From Candidatus Woesearchaeota archaeon (GTDB taxonomy: Archaea > Nanobdellota > Nanobdellia > SCGC-AAA011-G17 > VGLX01), in NCBI GenBank assembly GCA_964428965.1, contig CAYSAF010000002.1:20985-84984 (forward strand): a stretch of 64,000 nt of DNA, in the 5' to 3' direction. Position numbers and translations under genes: made by a program. Positions within the stretch are counted from its first letter, which is position 1. Each line of letters begins with the position of its first letter. This document shows, piece after piece, positions 29,245 through 49,529 of this stretch. The notes under the pieces are model-generated. The model made no database searches. It saw nothing but the letters and a program-made list of their open reading frames with translations, and had not been told where the DNA came from.

Positions 29245-31530
29245 TTATTCCACAGTTATGTCGGTCAGGCTTGTTCCCTTGACGAGTGCTTCTGTGCCTG
29301 ATAAGGTATAGTCCTTGTAGTTGGCTAAAACCTTAGCAGCCCTTCTGGTGTCTAAGGCATTGGTACCGGCTATCAGCAGAGCAACCTTGTTGCCGTTCGC
29401 TGCCAGCTTGATTAAACCTTCGCCTTCCTTCAAACTCCAGCCTTCGCACGTCATTCCAAATCCGGGAACAGCTGTAACAGCATCGTTTGCGCAAGGTCCA
29501 CCCACGACGATCAAGTTGTACATGGCCTCTGAACCTTTTATTTCAGAGTCCAACTTTGTCACAGGCGTAATGCTTGCGACAGTACATGTCTCGCCGGCTG
29601 CGCTTGTTGTAGCAGCACTGCCCTTTATGACGATGTTGGCCTGCACCTGGTCCGCAGGTATGTCAAACACAACCTCATCTGAGGCACCGTGAGCCTTCGG
29701 ATCCCTTATTATGATCCCGTACCTTGACAGGTGGTCCTCGTCCTTCGTACCTATAGACATCTCTGTGTAGCCGTCACCAGCTGTGTTTCCATCAGTGGTT
29801 TCGTTGTAACCAAACCATCTCAACTCTCCAGCCTCTTCTGAGGAAACTGTGCTTCCCAAAGCTGCAAAGGAGTAATCAGCTGCTGCATGCGTCCACCACA
29901 TAGATACGTTGTCGTTGTAATACGGCATGTCCGAACTTATGTAAGGCGATAAGGTTACGTTGATTCCGTTTTCTGCAGTTGTACCCTCAACAAGTATAGG
30001 CATGTCAGTACTCTTTGTGTTGTCGTAGTTAACCTCAGCTATGGTGTTAGAGGTTCCTGATACATTACCTATACAACCTGCCATCTGAGTCTTACTGTTG
30101 GTATCCTTGTAGTAAACCCCTAGTGATGCTGCTTCACCGTTAGTTGCGTTCATACATCTCCACAGCCAAATCTTATCCGACTTGGGGTTGGATATTGTGC
30201 CGTTGGCATCAAGATATCCACTACCAGTCTTGATCTGGAATCCTTCAGCCTGGTTCGTGTGGGCGTACACAGCAGATACTGATGTGGATGAACCACCGTC
30301 AGCTTGACTCAAGTCTGCGTTGGTGTCCAACTCAAACGTGTACGTCTTGTAGGCTGTGTCCTTAACAGTCAGACTGTCAAGACATATACTAACGTAGCTG
30401 TTTGGCAGTTCGATGCACTCACCAACACCTGGCGGGTTATCCGAATCGTCGTTATAGACGAAATCGTTCTCGATACTTAGGTAAGGACCTGTGAACTCGC
30501 CTGTGGTGTTTGTCGTGGTCGAAGAGTAGTCGTGTAAGCTACCTATGTTCCATACCCAGTTAGGGTCGTCCTTATTCTCACCGATGTAGGCGTCTCCATC
30601 CTTGTAGGTCTGCTGGGCTTCCTTACCCAAGATCAAGGATGCTGACCTCTGAGCCTTAACGGTTTCATAGAACGTTTGATCTACTTTTACTTCAATGCCG
30701 TTAACGACTTTTGCGGTGGAAGACACTACCTCTACAACACCATCAACGTCAACAACGATAGAGCCCCCTTCACCTACGTTCGTCAAGGTAACTTTCTTAC
30801 CCTCTACTTCTACAGAATCTCCTACATCCATGAAGTATTCTGTACCCACATAGGCTGAGAACTTGTTATCGACTGATGTGTCGATCTCGGTTATCTTCAA
30901 GGTCTTACCCAAGAACTTAATCTCCAACGGGTTGGTTGATGTCGTCTTGTTTAACTGGATGGTCTCATCAAATACATAGTAGTACTTGATTGAATCCACG
31001 TCAGCTTCCAGTACAACATCTGTCTGGTAGTCGTCATCGTTACTTGTCAAACTGGTCTGCACTCTTGGGAATTTGCTCGCTTGACCCAGTTCGAGAATTT
31101 CCCTGGTGTCATAAGTTCCACTTTGGAAAGCGATCTCCCCATCCCAGAGAGAATCTATGTCGTCGTCTTCCAGCTCCTGGTCGAAAGTCCTTGAAGCCGC
31201 GTTAGCTATAGGTTCACCAAGAGGGATATCATCGGTATCTCCTCCTGTGACGCTAACAGTTCCACCAGACGCTTTACACTCCTTGGATTCGTATTGCAAG
31301 TTCGTTGCAATATCTACCATACCGAGTGTATCAGATGCTGCTGCGTTGGCACCTACGACTAGCACGTTGCTAGAGTCGTACTTACCGCTTACAACGAATG
31401 GCGACGGATAGTCCTTCAAGTCAAGAGCCATCGCACCGGTCATGGTAGCCCCCAACATTGCCATTCCTGTACCAATAGCAGCAGCCGTCTTAACGGCTTT
31501 CTTAGCTTTCAGTACAAAGCTTTTTTGCAT
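29245..31530 (-). CDS. Large secreted surface protein of 761 aa, S-layer-like, with no C-terminal TM
   Basis: Signal 'MQKSFVLKAKKAVKTAAAIGTGMAMLGATMTGAMA'. Composition is Thr/Ser/Gly/Asp/Asn-rich. A strong SD 'GGAGGTG' lies 8 nt upstream of the ATG, and the gene has its own promoter region. Confidence 0.6.
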   Translation of the reverse strand: MQKSFVLKAKKAVKTAAAIGTGMAMLGATMTGAMALDLKDYPSPFVVSGKYDSSNVLVVGANAAASDTLGMVDIATNLQYESKECKASGGTVSVTGGDTDDIPLGEPIANAASRTFDQELEDDDIDSLWDGEIAFQSGTYDTREILELGQASKFPRVQTSLTSNDDDYQTDVVLEADVDSIKYYYVFDETIQLNKTTSTNPLEIKFLGKTLKITEIDTSVDNKFSAYVGTEYFMDVGDSVEVEGKKVTLTNVGEGGSIVVDVDGVVEVVSSTAKVVNGIEVKVDQTFYETVKAQRSASLILGKEAQQTYKDGDAYIGENKDDPNWVWNIGSLHDYSSTTTNTTGEFTGPYLSIENDFVYNDDSDNPPGVGECIELPNSYVSICLDSLTVKDTAYKTYTFELDTNADLSQADGGSSTSVSAVYAHTNQAEGFQIKTGSGYLDANGTISNPKSDKIWLWRCMNATNGEAASLGVYYKDTNSKTQMAGCIGNVSGTSNTIAEVNYDNTKSTDMPILVEGTTAENGINVTLSPYISSDMPYYNDNVSMWWTHAAADYSFAALGSTVSSEEAGELRWFGYNETTDGNTAGDGYTEMSIGTKDEDHLSRYGIIIRDPKAHGASDEVVFDIPADQVQANIVIKGSAATTSAAGETCTVASITPVTKLDSEIKGSEAMYNLIVVGGPCANDAVTAVPGFGMTCEGWSLKEGEGLIKLAANGNKVALLIAGTNALDTRRAAKVLANYKDYTLSGTEALVKGTSLTDITVE

Positions 31531-31811: not shown

Positions 31812-32273
31812 TTACTTTAGACAGACCAAAAGGTTGATCAGCAGGGAGGTCTTACCAAACCTGACGTTAGCATGAGCAGCCATCCTCTTAGGCAGGCTGC
31901 AGGAGCCGTCGGAAAGGAAGAGAGAGCTGCCTTCCTTAATCTCAAAAGAGTACTGCCAGCCAGAGTTGTAAGACCTGGTAACGTTGGCAACCACCTCTTT
32001 TATGTAAGCTTTACAGTCAGGATTACCGCAGTAATCCCTGTTTCCAGAAAACATGTAACAAGTAACAATAACATCTTCCAGGGTATCAGACAAATCCTCA
32101 CAAGGGGTAACCTTCATCATGGTGTTAAGAAGATTCGAAACCTCAGCGCTCTGCCTAAGATCAGGCAGAGAGGTATCAACAGGTTTCTGCAAGAAAAAAA
32201 GATAGATAAGACCGCCAAAAATGAACAACACAACTATTACCAAAAGACCTAACATCTCCATCTGAGCCCTCAC
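31812..32273 (-). CDS. Small membrane-anchored exported protein of 153 aa; last gene of the surface operon
   Basis: N-terminal hydrophobic segment 'MLGLLVIVVLFIFGGLIYLFFL'. It is coupled by ATGA overlap to the upstream gene. Confidence 0.5.
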   Translation of the reverse strand: MRAQMEMLGLLVIVVLFIFGGLIYLFFLQKPVDTSLPDLRQSAEVSNLLNTMMKVTPCEDLSDTLEDVIVTCYMFSGNRDYCGNPDCKAYIKEVVANVTRSYNSGWQYSFEIKEGSSLFLSDGSCSLPKRMAAHANVRFGKTSLLINLLVCLK

Positions 32274-32836
32274 GAGTACACCTCCACCGACAACACACCA
32301 ACAGCAAACCTCCTAGTAAGAGGGTGATAAAGAGAGACGGGAGTCTTAACTATGTCCTTGGCAGCGTAGCTTGGCTTGGGATGATGATAAACAGTCCAGT
32401 TACTACAAGTCTCAGGATAGTCAATGTGATTAAAAGCATCAAGGTCACACTCGCCGCTATTATTGGCATTCTCACTAAGCTTACCAGGCAAGGGATATAT
32501 CTGCTCAAAACGAATAACCTTAAAACCATAAGTACCCACATAGGCAGCCTTGTTAGAGCTGACCAACTTCTTGAAAGCCTGAAGCTTAACAACATCAACA
32601 TAATCCTTGGAATCACCCTTAATGCTGTACTGAACCTCAGGCAACGAATCTATTATGTTAACAAAAACAGTAGCCTTAACATCAGAAATACGCTTACCTG
32701 CTTCCCCAATACCAGCCAGGGACACATTATAATATATAGCGAGACCTATGACAATAAGGACAACTATAACAACAACCACCATAATAGCTTCTATGAATTC
32801 AAGATCACCCCTCTTAGAAGAGAACCACGCAGGCAC
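32270..32836 (-). CDS. Pilin-like protein with a putative class III signal (KRGD/hydrophobic). The start is tentatively the GTG at 32836; the ORF extends to 32965, and an internal ATG at 32782 is an alternative.
   Basis: 'SSKRGDLEFIEAIMVVVVIVVLIVIGLAIYY' has a basic-Gly motif followed by a hydrophobic helix, as in archaeal prepilins. Confidence 0.4.
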   Translation of the reverse strand: MPAWFSSKRGDLEFIEAIMVVVVIVVLIVIGLAIYYNVSLAGIGEAGKRISDVKATVFVNIIDSLPEVQYSIKGDSKDYVDVVKLQAFKKLVSSNKAAYVGTYGFKVIRFEQIYPLPGKLSENANNSGECDLDAFNHIDYPETCSNWTVYHHPKPSYAAKDIVKTPVSLYHPLTRRFAVGVLSVEVYS

Positions 32837-33899
32837 CTTTACCTCCCAACTTTTTATTACTCTCAACAATAAAATCTTTGAACGAATCAAACTTGGCATG
32901 ATCCACATAACCGGGATCAGACTTGGCTGAATCAACCTCGAGCTTGAAACCATCAAGGTTGGCAAGCCGGATCATGTTATAGGAGCAGTCGTTAGTAGAA
33001 TCAAGCAGGTCCTTGGTGTAAAGCATGTTAGCCTTCTCACCATAAAGATTAAGCATAAGGCTTAGACGCTTATAGATCCTTGAAAGCTGACAGTTATAAC
33101 TGTCAAAATCCTCAGCGAGTACTGCACCAAAAAGCATGGGCTTACCCACAAAAAAAGAGTTATCGTCAGGAAAGTCAACAGAGCCGTGACATTCATCATC
33201 TTCCTTATCAGGCTCACAGTCAACATAATCAATTATTACATAACGACCGCTGAAGCCAGAGGGGGGATTGGTCTTGAAAAAAGCAAACTTAACAAAGTCA
33301 TACCTGCCCGAAGCATAAGAAAGCCTGGCCACAACCTGATCCTTTGAAATGCTCTCAACCTCAAAAGACTTTGGAAAGTTCTCATAATGATGCTCGGCAG
33401 GAGTTGTCAAGCTGTCGATGCCCTTAACGAAATCAGCAACATCACCGTCAGAAGGATAGACAAGGTAATACTTAGAACGCCTGTTTGTTAGGAAAAAGAA
33501 GTTGTCAACCTTGAAAGGATAGTACCAGCTCTGAGTCCAAGAGAGAATCTGATTATCCTCAAGCTTGGAAGGAGAAAAAATAACCTTCTTGGCATCAAAG
33601 TTATAAGTGCCTGAAGAAAACTTACCACAGGTAGGACCCTTGCCAAAACTCATCTTAACAGGAGAAGGCCAAGCCTCATTGGGAATTGGCTGGCTCTGAT
33701 CTTCAGAAACCATCAAAGCATTAAGTGAATCGTCAATCATGAAACCCAGCTCTGTAGTAGAAACCTCCTCCTTAGACTTACCCATGTCCATAGCAAACTT
33801 CACAAAAAAAAGAAGTATTATAGCGCCGACAACTAAAGAAAATATGTACTTGAATACAGGAGCAGCCAAGCCCTTACGAAGCTTTAGAAACCTCAACAT
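32814..33899 (-). CDS. Pilin-like or class III signal protein of 361 aa
   Basis: N-terminal 'MLRFLKLRKGLAAPVFKYIFSLVVGAIILLFFV', an RKG motif followed by a hydrophobic segment. Confidence 0.45.
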   Translation of the reverse strand: MLRFLKLRKGLAAPVFKYIFSLVVGAIILLFFVKFAMDMGKSKEEVSTTELGFMIDDSLNALMVSEDQSQPIPNEAWPSPVKMSFGKGPTCGKFSSGTYNFDAKKVIFSPSKLEDNQILSWTQSWYYPFKVDNFFFLTNRRSKYYLVYPSDGDVADFVKGIDSLTTPAEHHYENFPKSFEVESISKDQVVARLSYASGRYDFVKFAFFKTNPPSGFSGRYVIIDYVDCEPDKEDDECHGSVDFPDDNSFFVGKPMLFGAVLAEDFDSYNCQLSRIYKRLSLMLNLYGEKANMLYTKDLLDSTNDCSYNMIRLANLDGFKLEVDSAKSDPGYVDHAKFDSFKDFIVESNKKLGGKGACVVLF

Positions 33900-34359
33900 A
33901 ATTACCCCTAGAAGTCAAAACTATAGGCATGTTATTCCTAACACACAAAGGATTCTGAGAGGCAGGAGCTCTCAGGCAAGGAACGTAATAAGCCAAAACG
34001 CTCTTTGAAGAGTAAACAAAAACGTTGGAATTATTCCTCAAAGCAACAAAAGTGGGATTGTAATTTGACGGCTTATCAGTAGAACCAAAAAAGGGAATCT
34101 CGTGACTTGCGAAACAGACGTAGTTGAAGTCACAGGGAAGGTTAACAATAAACCTGTTACTGCTACCGACTTCGAAATAACAATAACGCTGAACATCCTT
34201 CTTCAAACCTGTCACGTAGTCAGCAACCTCGACATCACAAGAAACCTTCACAAGCTTGTAAACCTGGTAGACCCCCCAAGTGAGAATCAAAGCGCCAACA
34301 ACCAAAGCAAAAATCATCACCAAAGGCTGACCGAGCAACTGACCTCTTTTTTTCATCAA
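33874..34359 (-). CDS. Pilin-like protein of 161 aa with a class III (prepilin-type) signal
   Basis: N-terminal 'MMKKRGQLLGQPLVMIFALVVGALILTW'. The KRGQ motif followed by a hydrophobic helix is characteristic of archaeal type IV pilins. Confidence 0.55.
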   Translation of the reverse strand: MMKKRGQLLGQPLVMIFALVVGALILTWGVYQVYKLVKVSCDVEVADYVTGLKKDVQRYCYFEVGSSNRFIVNLPCDFNYVCFASHEIPFFGSTDKPSNYNPTFVALRNNSNVFVYSSKSVLAYYVPCLRAPASQNPLCVRNNMPIVLTSRGNYVEVSKAS

Positions 34360-34395: not shown

Positions 34396-37300
34396 TTACA
34401 CGTAGACAGTGAACTTGGCCTCGTTCTTGAAAACATCGATGCAACTTATGTAATAAACAGGATTTGCTATGCTCAACTCGTGGATTAGCGAGTCTGTACC
34501 TGTCATCTGTGTGCCAGAGTCATAACTTATCGTTGAGTTCGTTGAATACTGACAGTTCGAAGGCTCGTTAAGCTCGAGATGCAACACAGTGCCTTCAGAA
34601 TATATGTAGATAATCTTCGGAGAGTCCAAGTCAATATCAACCTTGAACGTCATGTTTGAATAAGCCTCGTTACCTGCAATGTCACGACACATAACATAGT
34701 AGAAGTAGTCGCCCTTATCCAAAATAAGAGGCTGCCTGTGAATTGTTGAATTGGTCTCGAAGAACTCAATCATGCTCAGGAAAGGAACGTCAGAGTTAGC
34801 ATATCCACACCTTGCTTCACCCTCCTTAGCCCCACCACTGGTGATAACCCTCAACTCGGCATCGGACTGGTACAAAGTACCTGAAGGACCTGTGCTATCA
34901 ATCATCAAGATCTTGGTTGAACGCAAGCTGAACAAATAACTCTCTGTGTTAACGTTACCCTTCCTGTCCTTACACTTGAAGTAATAATCAGTAACACCTT
35001 CAGAATTGATCAATAGGTCTGTCTTGCACTCGTACAAACCATAATAAATTGAGGACAGGCTGAAGCCTGAATCAGCACAGGTAAACTTGCGGTCCATCAA
35101 ATCAAACTCGGTGTCGTTGAAATTCCAACGACAGTCTGCAGGCTCGTTAGTGTAAACGCTGAATGAAGTTGAATTAACATTGTAAGGAGCGTAAGCGCCG
35201 TTCTCAACACTTGTACGCTCAATAACAGGAGCTGTCAGGTCAGGAGCAGGCTCGATGCTGAACCTGATGAAATAATCACGGCTGTTCTTATTGCCAGAGG
35301 CATCCTTGCACCTTATGTAAATGTTGTAATTGCCGCCGTTTGTCAGCTTCAAGGCTTCAGGAGTTGTCAAGTCAGAGGGCAGAGTTAAAGTAATCTGGTG
35401 GTCATAAGTGTAGACTGCTTCTCCGAAGAAAGCTGTCTTCTGCTCAAAGTCAACAGAATGTTCAGAGCCGAACTTGCACTGAGCAGGCTCGTCAGTTTTT
35501 AAACCCAAAGTGATTGCCTGGAACGGCTTCAGCTTCTGATTAAGTTTGAAACCCTTATTACCCTCATCTGTAATCTCTGTGATTGTGAAACCTTTAGCGA
35601 GGACATCCTTCCAAGGGGTTATGATAGGAGAGTTAACATCATTCGGGTGCATGTTGATACACTTCTCCTCAGAAGTACCCAGATTGACCAAAGAACAGAG
35701 CTTGCCGAGAGACTTACACCTGTACTCGGAACAGGGCTTGTTGTTATTATCTTCATTACACTTCTCACAATCCTTACCACCCGCGGGAGCCTGCCAGACA
35801 TCACAAGTCATATGATAAGTCTCTGATTTGTCCTGAGCGAGGAAAACATCAACGAACTGGTAGATTGTGTAGAGCCACATCAATGTGTTGAGGGCGCCCA
35901 TAACATTGGACATAGCACTACTACTTTGAGTGGTTATTGTCTGGCCTTCAGGTACTTTCATCCCTTTTTCTGTAACAACTTTATACATACCTTCATCGGT
36001 GGTACTTGGGACAATATCTTTTGATTTAGCAAGAAGTTCTTTGTCGCCTTTAAAAAATTTCAATGCTTCTCCCTCAGTTAAAGGTGTATTCTTACCTACA
36101 GTACTTCCACTTGAAAAAGTCCTTACGCCATAAGTAGCACCCCAATTAGAAATTATATTGCCAGCAGGTTCCTTGCCAAGCTTGAACAACCAACCAAAAG
36201 CATTACCTATAGTTGATAGCCCTCCAAACATACCTTCTGTAAACTTACCCTTAGTCCAGCCAGTAGCAAAACCAGTATAAACACCGGTAGCAACCATCAC
36301 ACCAAGAGGAAGACCTGCCTGCTTGAAAAACTCGGTAAACTTACCACCGCCCAAGATACCAGAAGACTCTTCATCCTTCTCCTTCTTAGAAGGCTGGGAG
36401 AGAGTTTTCCAATCACCAACCTCTGACTCCTTCAACTTGCTACCCTTAAACCACTTCCTCTCAGCAGAAGCAGTGTTAGCATAACCATCAGTTGTTATCT
36501 TACCCAATATGTTGAAATAGGCACCACAGTCACCCATCGACTTACAAAGGGTGTTACCAGCAACGATCCAAGAATGCTCGGTACAATGACAGTTCTTCAC
36601 ACACTCCCAATCATCAACTGCAAAAATCCTTGACATACCACCCCGATGCCAGCTAACAGTGCACTCCTGATTAGCCTGGGTGCAAACGCTGGAACCAGAA
36701 CCGCCGCCAACACCAGTAATAGTGCTTGTGCCAGCAGCTGTAGAAACAGCAGCACCTGTAGGTGTAGTAGTCTTTGAAGAGGTCTCCTCAGACGAGAGCT
36801 TGGTTGCAAGCTTCTGCCCTGTACCAGTCTTTGTGGTTGAGGAAAGCTGCTCAGGCTCCCTATTCCAGAAAGCAAAACCAGGGGGAACGTCAGGAACACA
36901 AACTCCGGTAATGCCAACAGCAATACCTGCCTTCAAAAAGAAACAATCACGAACAGCAACGTCTTCACAGCACTTCTTAACACAACAATCAGCGCCCTTG
37001 CCAGAGCAATCACCTCCGCAAGACCTTTGAGAGTTACAAGCAAAACAATCCTCCCATCTGCTATCACGACAGGCAGCCTCAACATAATCACCGGTAACGC
37101 CGAAAGACTCGAAGGCAGTCTTAGCAGGCTCGTTATGCATTATGCCCTGAACACAAATCTCTTCCCTGAAATCACGACAGGGCTCAACCATCTCCTCACC
37201 GTTAACACAGATGTGACGGAAATGCCTTGAGCCGACAGCATCACGAGCATGGCCTGGAAAGGTATCATAAATACACCAGGATTCGCCATTCTTCTTTTTT

Positions 37301-38211
37301 GTACCTGAGTTAGAGCTGACATCATCCTTGTAAACAGTATTGCAGTTAACATCACGACAGGTAAATTCGCCAAACTTCATGTTGACGTTCTTGGCAGGAC
37401 CGCAAAGGGTTCCGGTGCTGTAATCACAATTACCGCAGTTAGGATCGTTAACAGTCTTGGACTTACAACTCTGCTCCTTGGAAAGAACATAGCCGTTGTT
37501 GTAAGAAGAAACCTTATCAGCGTTGTAAATATTCTCTTGGTTGCCGCAACTGTCAAACCAGAAAACCTCATCCTGACCTGGCAGACAACCAGTCTTCTGC
37601 TGCTTGGCACAGTCACACTTCAACTTGTCGTTACTGCACAGCATTCCGGGATAGAAGCCGTCGCCAGTCTCGTTGCCCACCTGAACAGCGGCAGCAGTTG
37701 TGCAAGAACCTCTCATAGTAAAGCTGCACTCAGTACCTGAAACACAACAACCCTTGTCCTCAGCCCTTGACTTGGCTATGCACTCCTGCTCTGTAAGAAT
37801 GTTCTCGTCAAAAGTCATGGTAACGTTAGGGTATAAAGAAGTTTCAGCCTTGCAACGAACTTGGGTGACGAAAAAAGCCTCGTTACCTATTATGCAACAG
37901 CCCTTGCTGCATTGCTGAATGCCACAGTTCTCATCAGTATCCCAGGTGTTGCCATACATGGAGTTACACTCAGCCTTGGGAACGTTCTTAAAACATCTTC
38001 CCTCATCGCTGCTATAACAGCAGCCTACCTTGCAGAAAGAGGTCTGCTCACAGGTGATAGAAGCAACCTTTGAACCTGCAGCGCAGTTAGACTCATCGGT
38101 GTAAAGGCAATACTCATTCGCTTTTGTTTTCTCACAACAAACGTTGAAAGCGGAAACAAAACTAATCAAAATAAGAAATACTAAAGGGATGATACACTTC
38201 TTAAAATTCAT
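34396..38211 (-). CDS. Giant Cys-rich secreted protein 1 of 1271 aa. It has a signal peptide, an N-terminal Cys-rich module, Gly/Thr-rich linkers, a central hydrophobic segment and C-terminal repeated beta-type domains.
   Basis: 'MNFKKCIIPLVFLILISFVSAFNVCCEKTKANEYCLYTD'. Conserved blocks are 'CRDFREEICVQG', 'KSMGDCGAYFNILG', 'YHMTCDVWQAPAGGKDCEKCN', 'CSEYRCKSLGKLCS', 'NDVNSPIITPW' and 'YNIYIRCKDASGNKN'. The start overlaps the upstream pilin-like stop in an ATGA arrangement. Confidence 0.7.
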   Translation of the reverse strand: MNFKKCIIPLVFLILISFVSAFNVCCEKTKANEYCLYTDESNCAAGSKVASITCEQTSFCKVGCCYSSDEGRCFKNVPKAECNSMYGNTWDTDENCGIQQCSKGCCIIGNEAFFVTQVRCKAETSLYPNVTMTFDENILTEQECIAKSRAEDKGCCVSGTECSFTMRGSCTTAAAVQVGNETGDGFYPGMLCSNDKLKCDCAKQQKTGCLPGQDEVFWFDSCGNQENIYNADKVSSYNNGYVLSKEQSCKSKTVNDPNCGNCDYSTGTLCGPAKNVNMKFGEFTCRDVNCNTVYKDDVSSNSGTKKKNGESWCIYDTFPGHARDAVGSRHFRHICVNGEEMVEPCRDFREEICVQGIMHNEPAKTAFESFGVTGDYVEAACRDSRWEDCFACNSQRSCGGDCSGKGADCCVKKCCEDVAVRDCFFLKAGIAVGITGVCVPDVPPGFAFWNREPEQLSSTTKTGTGQKLATKLSSEETSSKTTTPTGAAVSTAAGTSTITGVGGGSGSSVCTQANQECTVSWHRGGMSRIFAVDDWECVKNCHCTEHSWIVAGNTLCKSMGDCGAYFNILGKITTDGYANTASAERKWFKGSKLKESEVGDWKTLSQPSKKEKDEESSGILGGGKFTEFFKQAGLPLGVMVATGVYTGFATGWTKGKFTEGMFGGLSTIGNAFGWLFKLGKEPAGNIISNWGATYGVRTFSSGSTVGKNTPLTEGEALKFFKGDKELLAKSKDIVPSTTDEGMYKVVTEKGMKVPEGQTITTQSSSAMSNVMGALNTLMWLYTIYQFVDVFLAQDKSETYHMTCDVWQAPAGGKDCEKCNEDNNNKPCSEYRCKSLGKLCSLVNLGTSEEKCINMHPNDVNSPIITPWKDVLAKGFTITEITDEGNKGFKLNQKLKPFQAITLGLKTDEPAQCKFGSEHSVDFEQKTAFFGEAVYTYDHQITLTLPSDLTTPEALKLTNGGNYNIYIRCKDASGNKNSRDYFIRFSIEPAPDLTAPVIERTSVENGAYAPYNVNSTSFSVYTNEPADCRWNFNDTEFDLMDRKFTCADSGFSLSSIYYGLYECKTDLLINSEGVTDYYFKCKDRKGNVNTESYLFSLRSTKILMIDSTGPSGTLYQSDAELRVITSGGAKEGEARCGYANSDVPFLSMIEFFETNSTIHRQPLILDKGDYFYYVMCRDIAGNEAYSNMTFKVDIDLDSPKIIYIYSEGTVLHLELNEPSNCQYSTNSTISYDSGTQMTGTDSLIHELSIANPVYYISCIDVFKNEAKFTVYV

Positions 38212-38990
38212 GGTACCAAAGTTGATTCTCCTTGAACGAAAAACTGGAAGACGTAATCGCTATCATACTTGCTCAGTATGTACAGCTTGTCAGGATATGG
38301 TTTCTTCTTCTCAATCCTAACCTCACCCCTCTTAGCAAGCATGTAAATCATCTGATCAAACTCGCCGAATTCGGTTTCGTAATCTAAAATATTTTGCGAG
38401 GCATCGTACAAGTAACCTAGCGGGTATTCAAAAGTCTGGGTGAACTCCTGAGCAGAAACCTCAGCAGAAGATTTAGTAGACCTAAGCCTTATCGGGTAGG
38501 TAACCTTAACTATCACCATTTCAGAACCTATGCTGGTCTCAACTGTCCATTTCTTTGGTGTTATTATCTCAAAACTGCCGAACTTCTTGAAGCTCTGAAC
38601 GTCGATACAAGTCTGCAAACTGAAGTCTATGGCAGCGTTAAGCTGACGCTCCATGTCAGACCTTGTAAGCATGCGATTGATGCAACGAGGGGTTCCAGTC
38701 ATAGTGTAACAGAGGTAACTGATGGTAGTATCGTTGTAAAGCCTGAAAGTGTCAGGAGGGGTTGACAGATAACCGCCTTGTAAACCGATCTGCCTGATAG
38801 GTTGATCAGAAACCTTGCCTATGCACTTAAGCACGTGCTCATTGATATCATCAAGCTCAGAGTTCAAGTCACCAACGCTTGGGTTGAGAAGAAATATGTT
38901 TGTCCTAGAATAGAGCAACAAAAAAGCAAGAATAACTATAACAATACCGAGAATAACGAAAATAGTAACCTGACCCCTTTTTTCCATCAA
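38208..38990 (-). CDS. Pilin-like protein of 260 aa with a class III signal
   Basis: N-terminal 'MMEKRGQVTIFVILGIVIVILAFLLLYS'. Confidence 0.55.
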   Translation of the reverse strand: MMEKRGQVTIFVILGIVIVILAFLLLYSRTNIFLLNPSVGDLNSELDDINEHVLKCIGKVSDQPIRQIGLQGGYLSTPPDTFRLYNDTTISYLCYTMTGTPRCINRMLTRSDMERQLNAAIDFSLQTCIDVQSFKKFGSFEIITPKKWTVETSIGSEMVIVKVTYPIRLRSTKSSAEVSAQEFTQTFEYPLGYLYDASQNILDYETEFGEFDQMIYMLAKRGEVRIEKKKPYPDKLYILSKYDSDYVFQFFVQGESTLVP

Positions 38991-39032
38991 ACCACCTTCC
39001 TAAATTTTAGTAACCTAATTATATAAAACTTT

Positions 39033-42000
39033 CTACAAATAAACAACTATCTCACCCATCGTATTGTTAAAATTATCAACGCAGTTTATGTAATAATGAT
39101 CAGCGTAGGCAGGGGCGGTAAGCTCTGCAGTACCAGAATTACCCATCTTAGTTCCGTTACCGTAAGTGAACGAAGAGCTTGAATGCTCGCAGATTGAGGG
39201 CTCATCGAGAGTTAGGTGCAAGGTTGAGCCGTCAGAGTAGATGTAAACTATATTAGGAGGGGTGGTGTCAGCATCGATTCTGAAGTTTATCGTTGTTGAA
39301 GCCTCGTTACTAGCAGAATCTCTACACTTAACATAGTAAGTGTAATCTCCCATCGCAAGATTGAGCAATGGCTGCTTGTGGCTAGCTGAATTAGTGTTAA
39401 AGAACTCAATCATTTGCTCAAACCCAACCTGGGAGGTGCTGAAACTGCAAACAGCAACGCCGTCCTGAGAGCCGCCAGCGGTAGTAACCTCAAGAGTAGG
39501 GCTGTTGGTAGTGTACAAAGTACCTGAAGGGGCAGCATAAACAATGCCCAACTCATTACTAACTATCAAGCTGTAAGGGGTGCTCTCCTGATTCTTGTTA
39601 TCCTTCAAGTCCATGCACCTGAAATAATAAGTATTAGTACCTTTTGAAACGTTCAACATGGCATAACAATCGTAATGGGTTATGAAAGTTGTGTTGTGGT
39701 ATTCCAAGTCGCAAGAAGCAGTCTCTTTCATGCTGTCGTAACCCTCATCCCGGGCTGACCACTTACAAGTTGCAGGCTCGTTCAGCAAAATATTAACTGT
39801 AGCCAGGGTCATATTCGATGCTATGTAAGAACCGTCCTCGGGATTGAAGCCATCAATCACTGGAGGGGTGATGTCAGGAAGATTCTCAGTTGAAAGCTTA
39901 ATGGTGTACTCACGAGTGTTAGCGTTACCAGAAGCGTCCTTACACCTGACATAAAACTCGTAATCTACACCACCAATTAAATTCAAGGTGATGTTGTGTT
40001 CAGTATCAAAGTAACCCTCACCAAGGTAGTTAGACATCTCATCAAATGTTTTAGTGTGCTCCTCAGATATCTTGCACTGAGCAAGCTCATCAGTCTTGAT
40101 ACCGAAGCTGATCAAGGTGAATGGCTTTATTTTCTGAGATATGGAAAAGCCGTACTCCAAACTGCTTAGAGAATAACCAGGGGTAAGAGCCTCAGGCCAA
40201 GGGGTGATAACAGGAGAGTTGACGTCGTGAGTGGTCTTGCTGAAACAAGAAACTCTTGAAGAACCCTCATTCTCTGGAATGAACTCGCAAAGCTTGCCGA
40301 GAGACTTGCACTTGTACTCTGTGCAGTCATCAAAGCTTAAAACATTTAACTTCTCATCACTCCTGCACTTGTCACAATCCTTGCCACCCTCTGGTGCTTG
40401 CCAAGGCCTGCATTGAGTATTCACATAATAAGTTTTTGTTTCTGCGGAAAAGATGAAGTATAAAACTACAGCTATAACTACAACAGCAACGGCAGCTATG
40501 GCAAATACACCTGCTGTTGTTAAACCTAAACTTGTAGTTGGAATTGCAGTCCCAGTAGTAGATGTTACTGTACCCACCCCTGTAAGAGCACTAAGTGCAG
40601 AACCAACTCCTGTGCCTGCAACAGCTCCTGCAACTCCGGCAACAGTAGCACCAAGTAAACCTGCGTTAATAGCCATAATAGCAACTATTCCAACAACCCC
40701 TGCATACATAGCATAATTCTGTATCGGACTTTTATACTCACTATCAATAGCTTGCATCATCTTTTCAAAATTTTCTTTCAGCATTTGCATACCACCGAAG
40801 ACACCGTACTTAGCATAGTCAGTCCAAGCACCTTTGCTTATCTTCCTGGGAGCTTTCTTGCTGCTTCCAGTAACAGAAAAACCTGCTTCGCTCTTCACAC
40901 CAAGAATGTTGATGTTAGCACCACAGTCACCCATAGACTTACACAGCTTATTCATATCATCGATGTACTTAGAAGTCTCGCAATGACAGTTTTGAACGCA
41001 CTTCCAACTTGAGAACTTAGAACTTTTAACGTAAACAACCTGACAAGACTGATCAGCACTCTCACAATTGCCCCGGTCTTCCCAAAACTTAAAACCGACT
41101 GGAACCGTTGAAATATTTGACTTAACAGGAGAATCATAAATCTCATTCTTAACGCACTGTGATTCAGAATAATCCTTAAGCTTCCCCTGGATGCAAACTT
41201 CTTCCCTGAAATCACGACAAGGCTCTACAATTTCCTCACCATTAACACACATGTGCTTGAAATGCCTAGTTCCAATCCTATCTATATAATCACCAGTGCC
41301 TGACTCGTAAACACACCAGGACTCGCCATTCTTTCTAAGGCTGCCCATGTCAGCATCGTGAACATTCTTTTCATCCTTGTAAGTGGAGTCGCAGTTAACG
41401 CTCTTGCAAACAAACTCATCGTTGATGTTCTTGCCGCACTTAGTGCCAGCAGCATAATCACAATCCTGGTCTTTATCCTCACGGTTGCCACAGCTGTCAA
41501 ACCAGTAAACATCATCATCATAACAACCCTTAGTGTAATGCCTATCACAATTACAGATGGAGATGTCAGAACAGAACTTGTTGTGGTTGAACTGACCGCT
41601 GTCAGCAGAGCACAAACCCCTTGTTGTAAATAAGCATGCATCACTCCTCTGACAACAACCCTCGTCGCCAGAACGACAGATGTCAGCACATTCCTTTTCA
41701 GAGGCAGCATCCCTGAAATCCTTAGTCAGGTCTGGAAAATCCTTAAGGAGATAATCACATTTCTTCTCGTTAACGTAGGAACAGGCACCAGCTATGATAC
41801 AACAACCGTTCCTGCAGTCAGAGTTCCCACAATCAGCGTCGGGGGTGAACTTACCAGCCATAGCGTTGCATTTAGCAAGAGGTGTATTCTTGTAACAGTT
41901 ACCCTCAACCTGATTCTGACAACAACCAAGCTGACAGTAAGAGGTCTGATCGCAAGAGGTTGCAGCGTTGTCAGACCTGATATTCAAGTCACACTTAGAA

Positions 42001-42155
42001 GCATCTGTGTAAAGACAATACTCGCCTGTGTTAGTTTTTTCACAGCAACGTTTATCAGCAGCAGAGACCGGGTTGATCAAGTAAATAGAGAAGATAGCAC
42101 AAATGAGAACGGAAATCATAAAACTAGCTTTACCTCTCAAAAACCTCTTTTTCAT
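39033..42155 (-). CDS. Giant Cys-rich secreted protein 2, about 1040 aa from the internal ATG at 42155. The ORF extends to 42431, but the extension looks non-coding. Paralogue of 34396..38211.
   Basis: 'MKKRFLRGKASFMISVLICAIFSIYLINPVSAADKRCCEKTNTGEYCLYTD'. It shares the blocks 'CRDFREEVCIQG', 'KSMGDCGANINILG', 'CRPWQAPEGGKDCDKC', 'CTEYKCKSLGKLCE', 'HDVNSPVITPW' and 'YEFYVRCKDASGNAN'. There is a central TM hairpin 'AGVVGIVAIMAINAGLLGATVAGVAGAVAG...AGVFAIAAVAVVVIAVVLYFIF'. Confidence 0.7.
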   Translation of the reverse strand: MKKRFLRGKASFMISVLICAIFSIYLINPVSAADKRCCEKTNTGEYCLYTDASKCDLNIRSDNAATSCDQTSYCQLGCCQNQVEGNCYKNTPLAKCNAMAGKFTPDADCGNSDCRNGCCIIAGACSYVNEKKCDYLLKDFPDLTKDFRDAASEKECADICRSGDEGCCQRSDACLFTTRGLCSADSGQFNHNKFCSDISICNCDRHYTKGCYDDDVYWFDSCGNREDKDQDCDYAAGTKCGKNINDEFVCKSVNCDSTYKDEKNVHDADMGSLRKNGESWCVYESGTGDYIDRIGTRHFKHMCVNGEEIVEPCRDFREEVCIQGKLKDYSESQCVKNEIYDSPVKSNISTVPVGFKFWEDRGNCESADQSCQVVYVKSSKFSSWKCVQNCHCETSKYIDDMNKLCKSMGDCGANINILGVKSEAGFSVTGSSKKAPRKISKGAWTDYAKYGVFGGMQMLKENFEKMMQAIDSEYKSPIQNYAMYAGVVGIVAIMAINAGLLGATVAGVAGAVAGTGVGSALSALTGVGTVTSTTGTAIPTTSLGLTTAGVFAIAAVAVVVIAVVLYFIFSAETKTYYVNTQCRPWQAPEGGKDCDKCRSDEKLNVLSFDDCTEYKCKSLGKLCEFIPENEGSSRVSCFSKTTHDVNSPVITPWPEALTPGYSLSSLEYGFSISQKIKPFTLISFGIKTDELAQCKISEEHTKTFDEMSNYLGEGYFDTEHNITLNLIGGVDYEFYVRCKDASGNANTREYTIKLSTENLPDITPPVIDGFNPEDGSYIASNMTLATVNILLNEPATCKWSARDEGYDSMKETASCDLEYHNTTFITHYDCYAMLNVSKGTNTYYFRCMDLKDNKNQESTPYSLIVSNELGIVYAAPSGTLYTTNSPTLEVTTAGGSQDGVAVCSFSTSQVGFEQMIEFFNTNSASHKQPLLNLAMGDYTYYVKCRDSASNEASTTINFRIDADTTPPNIVYIYSDGSTLHLTLDEPSICEHSSSSFTYGNGTKMGNSGTAELTAPAYADHYYINCVDNFNNTMGEIVVYL

Positions 42156-42171
42156 ATCACAAAAAGGGGAA

Positions 42172-42196
42172 GGGAGATATAAAAAACTTTCTACAA
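42172..42196 (-). promoter_or_regulatory. Putative BRE/TATA promoter of giant gene 2. It contains a motif shared with the region upstream of the 38990 gene.
   Basis: The minus strand reads 'TTTGTAGAAAGTTTTTTATATC' about 20-40 nt upstream of the ATG at 42155. A near-identical 'TTTGTAGAAAGTTTTATATAAT' lies at 39008-39032, upstream of the pilin-like gene starting at 38990. Confidence 0.4.
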
Positions 42197-42301
42197 AGAA
42201 AATAAAAGAAAAAATTTCAAACGGTTCACCTTCGATAAAAAAAGTAAAAGCGAAACGTTTAAAAATAATGGGAGCGATTAATAACAGTCTAATAAAAAAA
42301 A

Positions 42302-43426
42302 TTGAAAATGGAATTGGAATCAAACAACGAAGAACCTCCGCCTTCAGAGGCACAAACCATAGTTGAAGAGTACAGCGGAAAGGTGGTGGACAAGAATTCT
42401 TGGCAATACCTTCTGAAAAACAGTTTGGCAACAGCTAGGCAGATAGCGGAAAAAGCAGGGCTGAAAGAAGAGGAAGTAAGAGCCGTGATCAAGAAATATC
42501 CCGCAAAGATAAACCCTTACTATCTCTCATTGATCAAAGAAAAAGATGACCCCATATGGAAGCAATGCGTACCAACAATAGCCGAGCTTGAAGACGAGGT
42601 CGGCCTTGAAGACCCGTTAAGAGAGGAGGGAGAGGTTCCAGGAATAACACACAAGTATTCTGATAGGGTTTTATTCATAATATCAAACCAGTGCGCGATG
42701 TACTGCAGGTTCTGCACAAGAAAAAGGAAGGTTGGGGACCCGAACAAGGAGATAAAGTGGAGCGACCTGCAAAAAGGAATAGACTACATAAAAACACACA
42801 CGGAAATAAGAGACGTGATACTGTCAGGAGGAGACCCCCTGCTGATAGAAACAAAAAAGCTGGAAAAAATAATAAAGCTCGTCAGGGCAGTAAAGCATGT
42901 TGAGATAATAAGGATAGGAACAAGAGTTCCTTGCGTGCTGCCACAGAGGATAGACCAAGAGCTTTGCGAGATGCTAAAAAAGTACCACCCAGTATACCTT
43001 AATACACATTTCAACCATCCCAATGAGATAACAGAAGAATCAAAAAAGGCTTGCGAAATGTTAGCAGATGCGGGAATACAGCTGGGCAATCAAACAGTTC
43101 TGCTTAAAGGGGTTAACGACAATCCTGAAATCCTGAAAGAATTATTCAGAAAACTCCTCACAATAAGAGTGAAGCCTTATTACCTGTACCAAGCTGACAT
43201 GACAAAGGGAACGAACCACTTCAGGACAAAGGTGGAAGAAGGAATAAAAATAATAGGAGAGGTAGTGGGTTATACATCAGGGCTTTGCGTGCCCCACTAT
43301 GTCGTGGACGGAGCAGGAGGAAAAACTCCATTACTACCACAATACTTACAATACATAGACGATGAAATTGTGATACTAAAGAACTATCAAGGAAAGAAGT
43401 ACGTATACAAGCAGCCACAAGACTAA
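42302..43426 (+). CDS. kamA: Lysine 2,3-aminomutase (radical SAM, KamA/AblA family)
   Basis: 'ISNQCAMYCRFCTRKR' carries CxxxCxxC. 'DVILSGGDPL' and 'PYYLYQADMTKGTNHFR' are characteristic KamA blocks. Confidence 0.85.
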   Translation: MKMELESNNEEPPPSEAQTIVEEYSGKVVDKNSWQYLLKNSLATARQIAEKAGLKEEEVRAVIKKYPAKINPYYLSLIKEKDDPIWKQCVPTIAELEDEVGLEDPLREEGEVPGITHKYSDRVLFIISNQCAMYCRFCTRKRKVGDPNKEIKWSDLQKGIDYIKTHTEIRDVILSGGDPLLIETKKLEKIIKLVRAVKHVEIIRIGTRVPCVLPQRIDQELCEMLKKYHPVYLNTHFNHPNEITEESKKACEMLADAGIQLGNQTVLLKGVNDNPEILKELFRKLLTIRVKPYYLYQADMTKGTNHFRTKVEEGIKIIGEVVGYTSGLCVPHYVVDGAGGKTPLLPQYLQYIDDEIVILKNYQGKKYVYKQPQD

Positions 43427-49526: not shown

Positions 49527-49529
49527 AAA

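What the first reader, a model, noticed from the sequence alone, without database searches (positions are those of the whole stretch)
34396..42155. Giant secreted proteins carry an internal hydrophobic hairpin between the Cys-rich N-module and the C-terminal repeats
In giant2 two adjacent hydrophobic segments ('AGVVGIVAIMAINAGLLGATVAGVAGAVAG' and 'AGVFAIAAVAVVVIAVVLYFIF') are separated by a Gly/Thr-rich loop. Giant1 has a weaker Gly-rich amphipathic stretch at the equivalent place ('LPLGVMVATGVYTGFATGW...FGGLSTIGNAFGWLF'). A mid-protein TM hairpin in a protein of more than 1000 aa that is otherwise extracellular is unusual for an adhesin. It recalls membrane-insertion or fusion loops, or an anchoring hairpin, so both large domains would sit outside the cell. 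Immediately after it comes the conserved Cys cluster 'C(D/R).WQAP.GGKDC.KC'.
Basis: seen in the sequence. Interest (0 to 1): 0.6.

Follow-up and report, generated by a model that had tools for sequence, protein, structure and literature searches.

The report
Membrane-hairpin-anchored surface protein pair, Woesearchaeota
One of two large cysteine-rich surface proteins of an uncultured DPANN (Woesearchaeota-type) archaeon has two real membrane-spanning segments in its middle that most likely pin it to the cell membrane. Its neighbouring paralogue has lost them, and both genes belong to a conserved, uncharacterised cell-envelope operon next to the S-layer gene.

Summary
Residues 481-513 and 548-570 are hydrophobic enough to span a membrane. 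AlphaFold2 models them as free helices, not buried ones, and 81 of 85 giant2-type homologues have such segments although their sequence is not conserved. It holds only in part for giant1. Its Gly-rich stretches exist, but their hydropathy is no higher than chance. They lie about 125 residues upstream of the Cys cluster. The true counterpart of TM2 is a conserved amphipathic helix, residues 768-790.

Both proteins belong to a large, unannotated family found in Woesearchaeota, Pacearchaeota and Nanoarchaeia genomes. They sit in a conserved operon: TM-bearing giant, prepilin-like gene, TM-less giant, four more prepilin-like genes, then an S-layer gene. The C-modules are tandem Ig-like domains. 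The Cys-rich N-module matches nothing in PDB or BFVD.

My best reading is that giant2 is anchored by an N-out/C-out helical hairpin and giant1 is its unanchored exported partner (confidence 0.6). The number of membrane crossings is inferred, not shown. Most loops carry no positive charge, which is unusual for a cytoplasmic loop. I found no evidence for a fusogen role. Novelty: new variant of a known kind. Interest: moderate.

The parts
39033..42155 (-). giant2 gene (1040 aa; TM-bearing paralogue)
   Evidence: ORF and start, (P0001 is 100% identical over 1040 aa)
42060..42155 (-). giant2 Sec-type signal peptide, aa 1-32 (…INPVSA|ADKRCCEK)
   Evidence: KD 2.23 at the N-terminus; A32 nearly invariant in the alignment; translation checked. 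The cleavage site is inferred.
40731..42059 (-). giant2 Cys-rich N-module, aa 33-475 (43 Cys)
   Evidence: AF2 pLDDT mostly 75-96. The homologous giant1 N-module has no PDB or BFVD fold match. 1412 cluster representatives match this stretch, aa 32-475.
40617..40715 (-). giant2 hydrophobic segment 1 (TM1), aa 481-513, Ala/Gly/Val-rich
   Evidence: KD 2.19; Eisenberg mean hydrophobicity <H> 0.70; AF2 free helix 481-503 at low pLDDT
40515..40616 (-). giant2 uncharged Gly/Thr/Ser/Ala loop, aa 514-547
   Evidence: pLDDT 28-33
40446..40514 (-). giant2 hydrophobic segment 2 (TM2), aa 548-570
   Evidence: KD 3.16; approximate Hessa-scale sum -3.9 kcal/mol; AF2 helix 552-568
40365..40412 (-). giant2 conserved Cys cluster CRPWQAPEGGKDCDKC, aa 582-597
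   Evidence: C582, P588, C594 and C597 invariant; translation
39036..40442 (-). giant2 C-module, aa 572-1040: Cys-cluster domain followed by tandem Ig-like domains
   Evidence: AF2 pLDDT about 85-97. Foldseek finds tandem Ig/FN3 proteins, E down to 4e-14. Weak Big_13, Y_Y_Y and DUF4625 hits.
38208..38990 (-). p260, prepilin-like protein (MEKRGQ followed by a hydrophobic helix), always between the two giants
34396..38211 (-). giant1 gene (1271 aa; TM-less paralogue with signal peptide aa 1-21)
36265..36339 (-). giant1 helix A, aa 625-649 (FTEFFKQAGLPLGVMVATGVYTGFA), Gly-rich, below TM threshold
   Evidence: AF2 helix, pLDDT about 41-51; <H> 0.39-0.58; translation
36175..36246 (-). giant1 helix B, aa 656-679 (KFTEGMFGGLSTIGNAFGWLFKLG), amphipathic
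   Evidence: AF2 helix, pLDDT about 36-43; hydrophobic moment muH 0.40
35926..36144 (-). giant1 inserted small alpha/beta domain, aa 690-762
   Evidence: AF2 pLDDT 66-89. One homologue (P0176) has a true LysM domain in its central region.
35842..35910 (-). giant1 helix C, aa 768-790 (SNVMGALNTLMWLYTIYQFVDVF): conserved amphipathic counterpart of TM2
   Evidence: N775 87%, W779 67%, Y784 78%, D788 77% conserved. AF2 helix with pLDDT rising from 47 to 91. Intermediate forms seen.
35758..35805 (-). giant1 Cys cluster CDVWQAPAGGKDCEKC, aa 803-818
33874..34359 (-). p161, prepilin-like (MKKRGQ followed by a hydrophobic helix)
32814..33899 (-). p361, prepilin-like N-terminus (…LRKG followed by a hydrophobic helix)
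32270..32965 (-). p231, prepilin-like (…SSKRGDLEFIEAIM…). The true start is probably about 40 codons downstream of the listed TTG.
   Evidence: (homologue is 177 aa)
31812..32273 (-). p153, prepilin-like (M-RAQ-MEMLGLLVIV…)
29245..31530 (-). S-layer protein (PF05124). It has no TM anchor of its own and is the conserved last gene of the cluster.
   Evidence: Pfam 62.2 bits against a cut-off of 23.9; no KD window at or above 1.6; synteny

Best explanation
Giant2 is a cell-surface protein anchored in the archaeon's own cytoplasmic membrane by an internal helical hairpin.

Proposed biogenesis. The N-terminal Sec signal peptide exports the Cys-rich N-module. Segment 481-513 stops transfer. Segment 548-570 re-initiates translocation. 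The Cys-cluster domain and the four Ig-like domains therefore also end up outside (N-out/C-out).

Giant1 is its paralogue. In giant1 the same two positions hold non-spanning Gly-rich amphipathic helices and a conserved amphipathic helix. Giant1 is therefore exported whole and presumably stays at the surface by binding giant2 or other envelope parts.

The pair is made together with five prepilin-like (class III signal peptide) proteins and is encoded next to an anchor-less S-layer protein. I read the cluster as a conserved envelope or adhesion module of Woesearchaeales/Pacearchaeales-type DPANN archaea.

SHOWN: the TM-grade hydropathy, its conservation, the split into two paralogue types, the synteny, the Ig-like C-module, and the lack of a fold match for the N-module.

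INFERRED: two crossings, both modules outside, giant1-giant2 association, and the envelope or adhesion role.
For: Hydropathy. KD is 2.19 and 3.16. The approximate Hessa-scale sum for TM2 is -3.9 kcal/mol. A window of 3.16 was never reached in 2000 shuffles.

Structure. In the AF2 model (mean pLDDT 84) the only long low-confidence stretch is aa 476-556. It is modelled as free helices 481-503 and 552-568, not buried, and a beta strand at 572-582 begins the C-module.

Conservation. 81 of 85 giant2-type homologues have a KD window of 1.6 or more. In most, the last segment ends 10-15 residues before the invariant Cys. The residues themselves are not conserved, but aromatic residues and a P-x-x-G-W motif recur at the helix ends, as expected for a lipid-facing TM.

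Both or neither. Hydropathy of TM1 and TM2 co-varies (Spearman 0.62). At the two TM2 thresholds used, 70-80 proteins have both segments, 93-100 have neither and 20-27 have TM2 only. Most of the TM2-only cases have a borderline TM1.

Same compartment. 110 of 128 giant1-type proteins have no TM-grade segment, and giant1 itself has a signal peptide and no internal TM. The C-modules of both types keep the same invariant cysteines, including one pair in each of three Ig-like domains and two pairs in the fourth. One giant1-type member carries a genuine LysM domain in the central region.

Pairing. In 18 loci with both genes complete, the upstream giant has the TM and the downstream one does not. This is the commonest two-gene pattern.

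Operon. The order g2-p260-g1-p161-p361-p231-p153-S-layer recurs across MAGs that share as little as about 38% identity. Gene gaps are 42, -4, 36, -26 and -4 bp. The small proteins share an M-x-[KR][KR]-[GA]-Q motif followed by a hydrophobic helix.
Against: Loop charge. 60 of 92 loops between the two segments have no K/R and 40 of 92 have no charge at all. The 15 residues after TM2 carry about 1.7 K/R. In the same window, other membrane proteins follow the positive-inside rule strongly: p752 ends in a TM plus RKKKQ, and p189 in a TM plus RRKYRRFRR.

TM1 strength. TM1 is only moderately hydrophobic (mean KD 1.76; 27 of 92 are below 1.6). The crude count of hydrophobic segments per protein is not consistently even: 1 in 31 proteins, 2 in 26, 3 in 15.

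No dedicated topology predictor was available. No model coordinates or PAE were available, so I could not check module contacts or disulfide geometry.

The both-or-neither statistic mostly reflects two paralogue clades, not many independent events.

N-glycosylation sequon density does not discriminate.
Confidence: 0.6

Rival explanations
1. Precursor processing. TM2 doubles as an internal signal peptide, as in bunyavirus or flavivirus glycoprotein precursors. Signal peptidase cuts after the small-residue motif that follows it. The N-module stays membrane-anchored and the Ig-like C-module is released or held non-covalently. This rival is compatible with the hairpin model.
For: Counting back from the invariant Cys, positions -13 to -11 are [G/S/L]-[G/S/T]-[G/A/S], and position -10 is K/D/E. 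70 of 79 sequences have a small residue at -11 and 45 of 79 at -13, which resembles the -3/-1 rule. The layout of signal peptide, ectodomain, two TMs and ectodomain matches such precursors.
Against: The hydrophobic core of TM2 is 23-25 residues. That is long for a cleaved signal (established knowledge of signal peptides, not tested here). Gly-Gly may simply be a hinge between the helix and the first beta strand. No homology to viral glycoproteins was found. No proteomic data are available.
Confidence: 0.15
2. Odd number of crossings. Only TM2 spans the membrane (or three passes do). Giant2 would then be a type I membrane protein whose 470-residue Ig-like and Cys-cluster module is cytoplasmic.
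For: The loop lacks positive charge, while the flank after TM2 carries K/R (GG-K-x-K pattern). TM1 is weak in 27 of 92 members. Segment counts are often odd.
Against: The homologous C-module of giant1-type proteins is exported, because they have a signal peptide and no TM. The same 15-17 cysteines are conserved in both types, including one pair in each of three Ig-like domains and two pairs in the fourth, which suits extracellular disulfides. The flank after TM2 is net neutral (1.74 K/R against 1.72 D/E), unlike the strongly basic tails of true type I proteins in this window.
Confidence: 0.1
3. Membrane-active element aimed at another cell. The uncharged Gly/Ala-rich region of giant2 and the Gly-rich amphipathic helices of giant1 would insert into a host membrane, acting like a fusion peptide or pore-forming hairpin during DPANN-host contact.
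For: The composition resembles viral fusion peptides (recalled from memory, not tested). An uncharged loop could cross a bilayer from outside. Helix B of giant1 is amphipathic, muH 0.40. DPANN relatives build host-penetrating attachment structures whose components are unknown (PMC11104419).
Against: A segment with KD 3.16 passing through the Sec translocon should be captured in the producer's own membrane (inference from established translocon biophysics). There is no fold similarity to any fusion or pore-forming protein in PDB or BFVD. AF2 does not tuck the hairpin into a soluble bundle, as pre-insertion toxins do. There is no C-terminal anchor and no heptad-repeat signature.
Confidence: 0.08
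4. Not membrane-related. The hydrophobic stretches are buried core elements or low-complexity noise.
For: For giant1 only, hydropathy is at chance level.
Against: For giant2, AF2 leaves the segments unpacked. Hydropathy is far above the shuffles. Hydrophobicity is conserved while sequence is not, in 81 of 85 homologues.
Confidence: 0.03

Closest known systems
N-out/C-out helical-hairpin membrane proteins (textbook model: E. coli leader peptidase Lep)
   Same: Two adjacent hydrophobic helices, with a large C-terminal domain translocated after the second helix. The hairpin serves as the sole anchor.
   Different: Giant2 also has a cleavable signal peptide and a 440-residue exported domain before the hairpin. 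Its loop is uncharged, whereas Lep's loop is basic. No homology. This comparison comes from general knowledge and was not computed.
Viral glycoprotein precursors with internal TM pairs (bunyavirus Gn-Gc, flavivirus prM-E)
   Same: The order is signal peptide, ectodomain, two TM segments, ectodomain. A small-residue motif follows the second TM.
   Different: No fold or sequence similarity. Giant2 is a chromosomal gene in a conserved cellular operon. Cleavage is unproven.
Archaeal type IV pilus-related loci that include S-layer-like proteins and adhesins (Makarova, Koonin and Albers 2016, PMC4858521)
   Same: Several prepilin-like genes sit in an operon with large secreted adhesin-like proteins and an S-layer-like gene.
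   Different: No secretion ATPase, TadC/FlaJ or prepilin peptidase lies in the 64-kb window. The small proteins match no Pfam pilin family. The giants are not pilins.
Tandem Ig-like/FN3 surface proteins (Big_13-type adhesins, Aureispira GhpA grappling hook, Deinococcus HPI S-layer)
   Same: The C-module fold is a chain of Ig-like domains. Foldseek E-values run from 4e-14 to 2e-9.
   Different: The match is generic (TM-score at or below 0.18 on the query, 9-14% identity). Pfam hits in the window proteins are below the curated cut-offs. The N-module and the hairpin have no counterpart.
S-layer anchoring systems (Sulfolobales SlaB stalk; ArtA/PGF-CTERM lipid anchoring in haloarchaea)
   Same: A membrane-anchored protein is encoded beside an S-layer protein that has no anchor of its own.
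   Different: The anchor here is internal, not C-terminal. No PGF-CTERM or archaeosortase model hit. No homology. An anchoring role is only an inference.

Membership tests
Integral membrane protein with a helical-hairpin anchor | Two segments hydrophobic enough to span a bilayer | tested here: met
   Giant2: KD 2.19 and 3.16; Eisenberg <H> 0.70 and 0.90; approximate Hessa sum -3.9 for TM2. Giant1: not met (central maximum KD 1.25; at chance level in shuffles).
Integral membrane protein with a helical-hairpin anchor | Hydrophobicity conserved across homologues while sequence drifts | tested here: met
   81 of 85 giant2-type proteins have a window of 1.6 or more. TM2 composition is I/V/L/A-rich, but the residues are not conserved.
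Integral membrane protein with a helical-hairpin anchor | Segments not part of a globular core | tested here: met
   AF2 models free helices at pLDDT 28-50, flanked by domains at pLDDT above 85.
Integral membrane protein with a helical-hairpin anchor | Even number of crossings, with a cytoplasmic loop that obeys the positive-inside rule | tested here: inconclusive
   60 of 92 loops have no K/R. Crude segment counts are 1, 2 or 3. The parity argument rests on homology to the exported giant1. No topology predictor was available.
Viral or cellular membrane fusogens (class I/II fusion proteins, fusexins) | Fold similarity to a known fusion-protein ectodomain | tested here: not met
   The best BFVD hit has E 0.15 and the best PDB hit for the N-module plus centre has E 2.2. 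The full-length giant2 search returns only generic Ig/FN3 proteins.
Viral or cellular membrane fusogens (class I/II fusion proteins, fusexins) | C-terminal TM anchor in addition to the fusion peptide or loop | tested here: not met
   No hydrophobic segment follows aa 576 in giant2, and giant1 has none.
PGF-CTERM / archaeosortase-type sorting signal | Tripartite signal (motif, TM, basic cluster) at the extreme C-terminus, recognised by NCBIfam models | tested here: not met
   The segment is internal, with 470 residues following it. NCBIfam gives no hit at E of 0.1 or below. No exosortase or archaeosortase Pfam hit among the window ORFs scanned.
Archaeal type IV pilin-like proteins (class III signal peptide), for the five small neighbours | Short basic N-terminus, [KR]-[GA]-[QASD] motif, then a hydrophobic helix of about 20 residues | tested here: met
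   The window proteins and their homologues show KRGQ/KKGQ/KKAQ followed by a hydrophobic helix. The consensus of 131 sequences is KKGQ.
Archaeal type IV pilin-like proteins (class III signal peptide), for the five small neighbours | Match to a curated pilin family; linkage to a T4P ATPase, TadC or prepilin peptidase | tested here: not met
   No shared Pfam family among 131 members. No NCBIfam hit for the five window proteins beyond one spurious weak match. None of these machinery genes is in the window. The rest of the genome was not searched.
Bacterial Ig-like domain families (Big_13 PF19077, DUF4625 PF15418, Y_Y_Y PF07495) | Score above Pfam's gathering cut-off | tested here: inconclusive
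   The window proteins score 20.9-23 bits against cut-offs of 26.6-27. Many homologues carry precomputed PF19077, PF15418 or PF07495 hits. The Ig-like fold is confirmed by Foldseek.
S-layer protein family PF05124 (neighbour gene 29245-31530) | Score above Pfam's gathering cut-off | tested here: met
   62.2 bits against a cut-off of 23.9, E 6e-17. The same family sits at the same position in related loci.

The most novel reading that the evidence does not exclude
The eight-gene cluster would encode the host-attachment apparatus of Woesearchaeales/Pacearchaeales. This would be a counterpart of the molecularly unidentified attachment organelle seen by cryo-ET in the related Nanobdella. In that organelle, repetitive densities sit on the outer face of the membrane where the S-layer is missing (PMC11104419). 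Giant2 would be the membrane-anchored base and giant1 the host-binding partner; one homologue of giant1 carries a LysM domain. The uncharged Gly/Ala-rich hairpin and the amphipathic helices would be the elements that engage or perforate the partner's membrane. The Cys-rich N-module would be a new fold.
Probability: 0.12. Interest if true: 0.85.

Novelty: new variant of a known kind. Interest (0 to 1): 0.5.

Why it matters
Woesearchaeota and Pacearchaeota are among the most widespread uncultured archaea. They are thought to live attached to other cells, but no component of their envelope or attachment machinery has been identified. This work defines a large family that is annotated only as 'hypothetical'. 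The N-module alone has 1412 cluster representatives at 50% identity, and more than 565 loci were found in species-representative genomes.

The family has a clear architecture and a conserved genomic partnership: anchored giant, unanchored giant, five prepilin-like proteins and the S-layer gene. That yields concrete, testable candidates for S-layer tethering or host adhesion. It also yields a confidently modelled Cys-rich module with no detectable structural relative.

The TM hairpin itself is a modest topological curiosity. The value lies in the conserved operon it points to.

Tried and rejected
1. Pfam and NCBIfam scans of both giants and all operon neighbours gave only sub-threshold Ig-like hits and the S-layer family. 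No family was found for the N-module or the small proteins.

2. A profile search of PDB sequences with the family alignment found nothing better than E 0.36.

4. I tested N-glycosylation sequon density as a marker of the extracellular side. The C-modules have about 1.0-1.3 sequons per 100 aa, like the S-layer protein, but this matches what their composition predicts. The N-modules are depleted. The test is not informative.

5. The idea of an internal PGF-CTERM-like sorting signal (T/S-rich linker, P-x-x-G-W, TM, lysines) was rejected. The segment is internal, no model hit was found, and no archaeosortase is in the window.

6. I looked for type IV pilus machinery in the window and found none. 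The flanks are glycan-biosynthesis and housekeeping genes.

7. Four full-text literature searches found no description of this family or operon. Castelle et al. 2021 note only that many DPANN-specific families are membrane-bound or extracellular and unannotated.

It was repeated with 60 sequences.


Full report
WHAT IS THERE

The interval 34396-42155 (minus strand) holds three genes. Giant2 is at 39033-42155 (1040 aa from MKKRF). A 260-aa gene, p260, is at 38208-38990. Giant1 is at 34396-38211 (1271 aa). The ORF lister extends giant2 to a TTG at 42431. The database copy and all homologues start at MKKRF, and the extension overlaps a divergent radical-SAM gene, so I use 42155 as the start. Both giants begin with Sec-type signal peptides (KD 2.2-2.5 at the N-terminus, with the alignment keeping a V-x-A site before 'CCEKT').

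CHECKING THE OBSERVATION

In giant2 the quoted strings lie at aa 485-514 and 548-569. Kyte-Doolittle 19-residue means reach 2.19 (aa 481-513) and 3.16 (aa 540-576). An approximate Hessa-scale sum for the best TM2 window is -3.9 kcal/mol; the scale values were recalled from memory, so treat this number as rough. In 2000 shuffles of the mature sequence, 3.16 was never reached and 2.19 was reached 49 times. The loop between the segments (aa 514-547) has no charged residue. The cluster CRPWQAPEGGKDCDKC begins 12 residues after TM2.

In giant1 the quoted stretches exist at aa 634 and 662. The central region peaks at KD 1.25, and the maximum over the whole mature protein is at chance level (767 of 2000 shuffles). 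They are not 'immediately' before the Cys cluster at aa 803.

STRUCTURE MODELS

AF2 on full-length giant2 with a 102-sequence alignment gave mean pLDDT 84 and pTM 0.62. The only long low-confidence stretch is aa 476-556. Free helices are modelled at 481-503 and 552-568, and a strand at 572-582 starts the C-module.

AF2 on giant1 aa 22-900 gave mean pLDDT 80 (model numbering plus 21). It shows:
- two low-confidence helices, A (aa 625-649) and B (aa 656-679);
- a small inserted alpha/beta domain at aa 690-762, pLDDT 66-89;
- a third helix C at aa 768-790, whose confidence rises from 47 to 91 as it reaches the C-module strand.

Helix B is amphipathic (muH 0.40, <H> 0.39). By contrast, giant2 TM1 and TM2 have <H> 0.70 and 0.90 with negligible moment.

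FAMILY

Giant2 finds 472 proteins and giant1 finds 292 in the 90%-clustered database. All are 'hypothetical' and come from Woesearchaeota, Nanoarchaeota or Nanoarchaeia MAGs. The N-module alone finds 1412 representatives at 50% clustering. A scan of species-representative genomes found at least 565 loci. Every one of the 79 loci kept comes from a Woesearchaeota, Pacearchaeota, Nanoarchaeota/Nanoarchaeia or unclassified-archaeon MAG.

The family splits into two types:
- Giant2-type (median 1051 aa): 81 of 85 have a KD window of 1.6 or more, 74 of 85 have an approximate Hessa sum of 0 or less, and in most the last segment ends 10-15 residues before the invariant Cys.
- Giant1-type (median 1253 aa): 110 of 128 have no TM-grade segment.

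In giant2-type proteins TM2 is I/V/L/A-rich (mean KD 2.63). It often starts with P-x-x-G-W, ends with aromatic residues, and is followed by [G/S]-G-[G/A/S], then K/D/E, then the strand. TM1 is A/G/L/V-rich (mean KD 1.76). The loop is A/G/T/S-rich, with median length 28 residues and a range of 2 to 111.

In giant1-type proteins the position of TM2 is taken by a sequence-conserved amphipathic helix, N-T-I-M-W-I-Y-T-I-Y-Q-L-V-D (N 87%, W 67%, Y 78%, D 77%). Intermediate forms link the two, for example 'ALNILGWIFIAYTIIELIRSLV'.

Across 231 full-length members the hydropathies of the two positions co-vary (rho 0.62). At the two TM2 thresholds used, both are TM-grade in 70-80 members, neither in 93-100, and TM2 only in 20-27, mostly with a borderline TM1. 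This largely reflects two paralogue clades, so it is not a count of independent events.

GENOMIC CONTEXT

The gene order is giant2, p260, giant1, p161, p361, p231, p153, S-layer protein (PF05124, 62 bits). It is found intact in a relative with only 38% identity and recurs across the fetched loci. In the window the gaps are 42, -4, 36, -26 and -4 bp, then 281 bp before the S-layer gene. In loci where both giants are complete, the commonest pattern is TM-bearing upstream and TM-less downstream (18 loci).

All five small proteins and their homologues begin with M-x-[KR][KR]-[GA]-Q followed by about 20 hydrophobic residues. This is the archaeal class III (prepilin-like) signal pattern. They hit no Pfam family. 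No type IV pilus ATPase, TadC or prepilin peptidase lies in the window. Makarova et al. 2016 (PMC4858521) describe archaeal T4P-related loci that include S-layer-like proteins and adhesins. That is the nearest described theme.

The S-layer protein here has no hydrophobic anchor. Two genes further downstream, p752 and p189, are classic type I proteins with a C-terminal TM followed by RKKKQ and RRKYRRFRR.

FOLDS

HOW IT MOST LIKELY WORKS

A segment with KD 3.16 that emerges in the Sec translocon should partition into the producer's own membrane. This is an inference from established translocon biophysics. So giant2 is almost certainly an integral membrane protein.

Whether it crosses twice is inferred, for three reasons:
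- Giant1-type proteins have a signal peptide and no TM, so their whole length is exported.
- Their C-module is homologous to that of giant2. It keeps the same invariant cysteines, including one pair in each of three Ig-like domains and two pairs in the fourth.
- One giant1-type protein carries a bona fide LysM domain in the central region (30.9 bits against a cut-off of 20.9, aa 776-820).

The simplest picture is that both modules of giant2 are outside as well. That needs an even number of crossings, that is, a hairpin. Giant1 would be the unanchored partner. I give this 0.6.

The main difficulty is loop charge. 60 of 92 loops have no K/R, while the flank after TM2 carries lysines but is net neutral. 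Other membrane proteins in this window obey the positive-inside rule strongly.

This keeps three rivals alive:
- Signal-peptidase cleavage after the [G/S]-G-[G/A/S] motif, as in viral glycoprotein precursors (0.15; compatible with the hairpin).
- An odd number of crossings with a cytoplasmic C-module (0.1).
- A membrane-active element aimed at a host membrane (0.08).

For the last rival there is no positive evidence beyond composition and the known existence of unexplained attachment organelles in the related Nanobdella (PMC11104419). The reading that the segments are buried core or noise is refuted for giant2 (0.03).

FUNCTION OF THE CLUSTER

This is inference only. A membrane-anchored giant, an exported paralogue, five prepilin-like proteins and an anchor-less S-layer protein are kept together across a whole archaeal class. 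That points to an envelope module, either tethering the S-layer or forming an adhesion complex. I cannot choose between these two.

NOVELTY AND SCORE

The kind of thing (an anchored surface or adhesin-like protein in an envelope operon) is known. Three aspects are new and undescribed in the literature I could search: the internal hairpin anchor, the anchored/unanchored paralogue pair, and the N-module with no fold match. I rate it a new variant of a known kind, with interest 0.5.

Noticed in passing
window 26313-28571 (minus strand): p752 is a 752-aa protein with a signal peptide, a C-terminal TM and an RKKKQ tail. It carries 31 N-x-S/T sequons (4.1 per 100 aa, against 12.8 expected from composition), so it is probably a heavily N-glycosylated surface protein. 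It has weak FG-GAP and MG2 hits.
   Followed up: partly
window 1-25133: A large glycan-biosynthesis island. It holds several GT4 and GT2 glycosyltransferases, a Wzx-like flippase, PMT_2, PIG-L, an NAD epimerase/dehydratase (Epimerase/GDP_Man_Dehyd Pfam hits), an LPG_synthase_TM protein, four B12-binding radical SAM enzymes and one SPASM radical SAM enzyme. It lies on the low-coordinate side of the surface-protein cluster, beyond the S-layer gene and p752.
   Followed up: partly
window 48001-50000: GC content drops sharply to 0.284, against about 0.40 elsewhere. The drop overlaps an Mrr_cat restriction-endonuclease-like gene (48441-49526) and an unannotated 293-aa ORF. This may be foreign DNA or a defence islet.
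   Followed up: no
P0176 (homologue, aa 776-820): A giant1-type family member has a genuine LysM domain inserted between the Gly-rich helices and helix C. The central region therefore seems to be a hot spot for inserting extracellular binding domains.
   Followed up: partly
L021, L022, L025, L012, L030 (related loci): Some genomes carry a third (or duplicated) giant upstream of the pair. In L021 and L022 the extra copy is 1320-1340 aa and has no TM-grade segment.
   Followed up: no
giant2 aa 33-475 and 572-1040; giant1 aa 22-620 and 793-1271: Cysteine counts are odd in every module (43 and 17 in giant2; 53 and 17 in giant1) but even per protein. This could mean an inter-module disulfide, a free or metal-binding Cys, or simply my choice of module boundaries.
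   Followed up: no
window 32270-32965 and 42156-42431 (minus strand): Two mechanical ORF starts look too far upstream. The TTG start of p231 overlaps p361 by 152 bp, while homologues are about 177 aa. The TTG start of giant2 adds 92 residues that overlap the divergent gene.
   Followed up: partly
p231 and p153 homologues: After the [KR]-[GA]-Q motif these two prepilin-like families keep a conserved Glu a few residues into the mature N-terminus (GQ-T-E-I-I-G; KGD-L-E-F-I-E). This recalls the Glu5 of bacterial type IV pilins.
   Followed up: no
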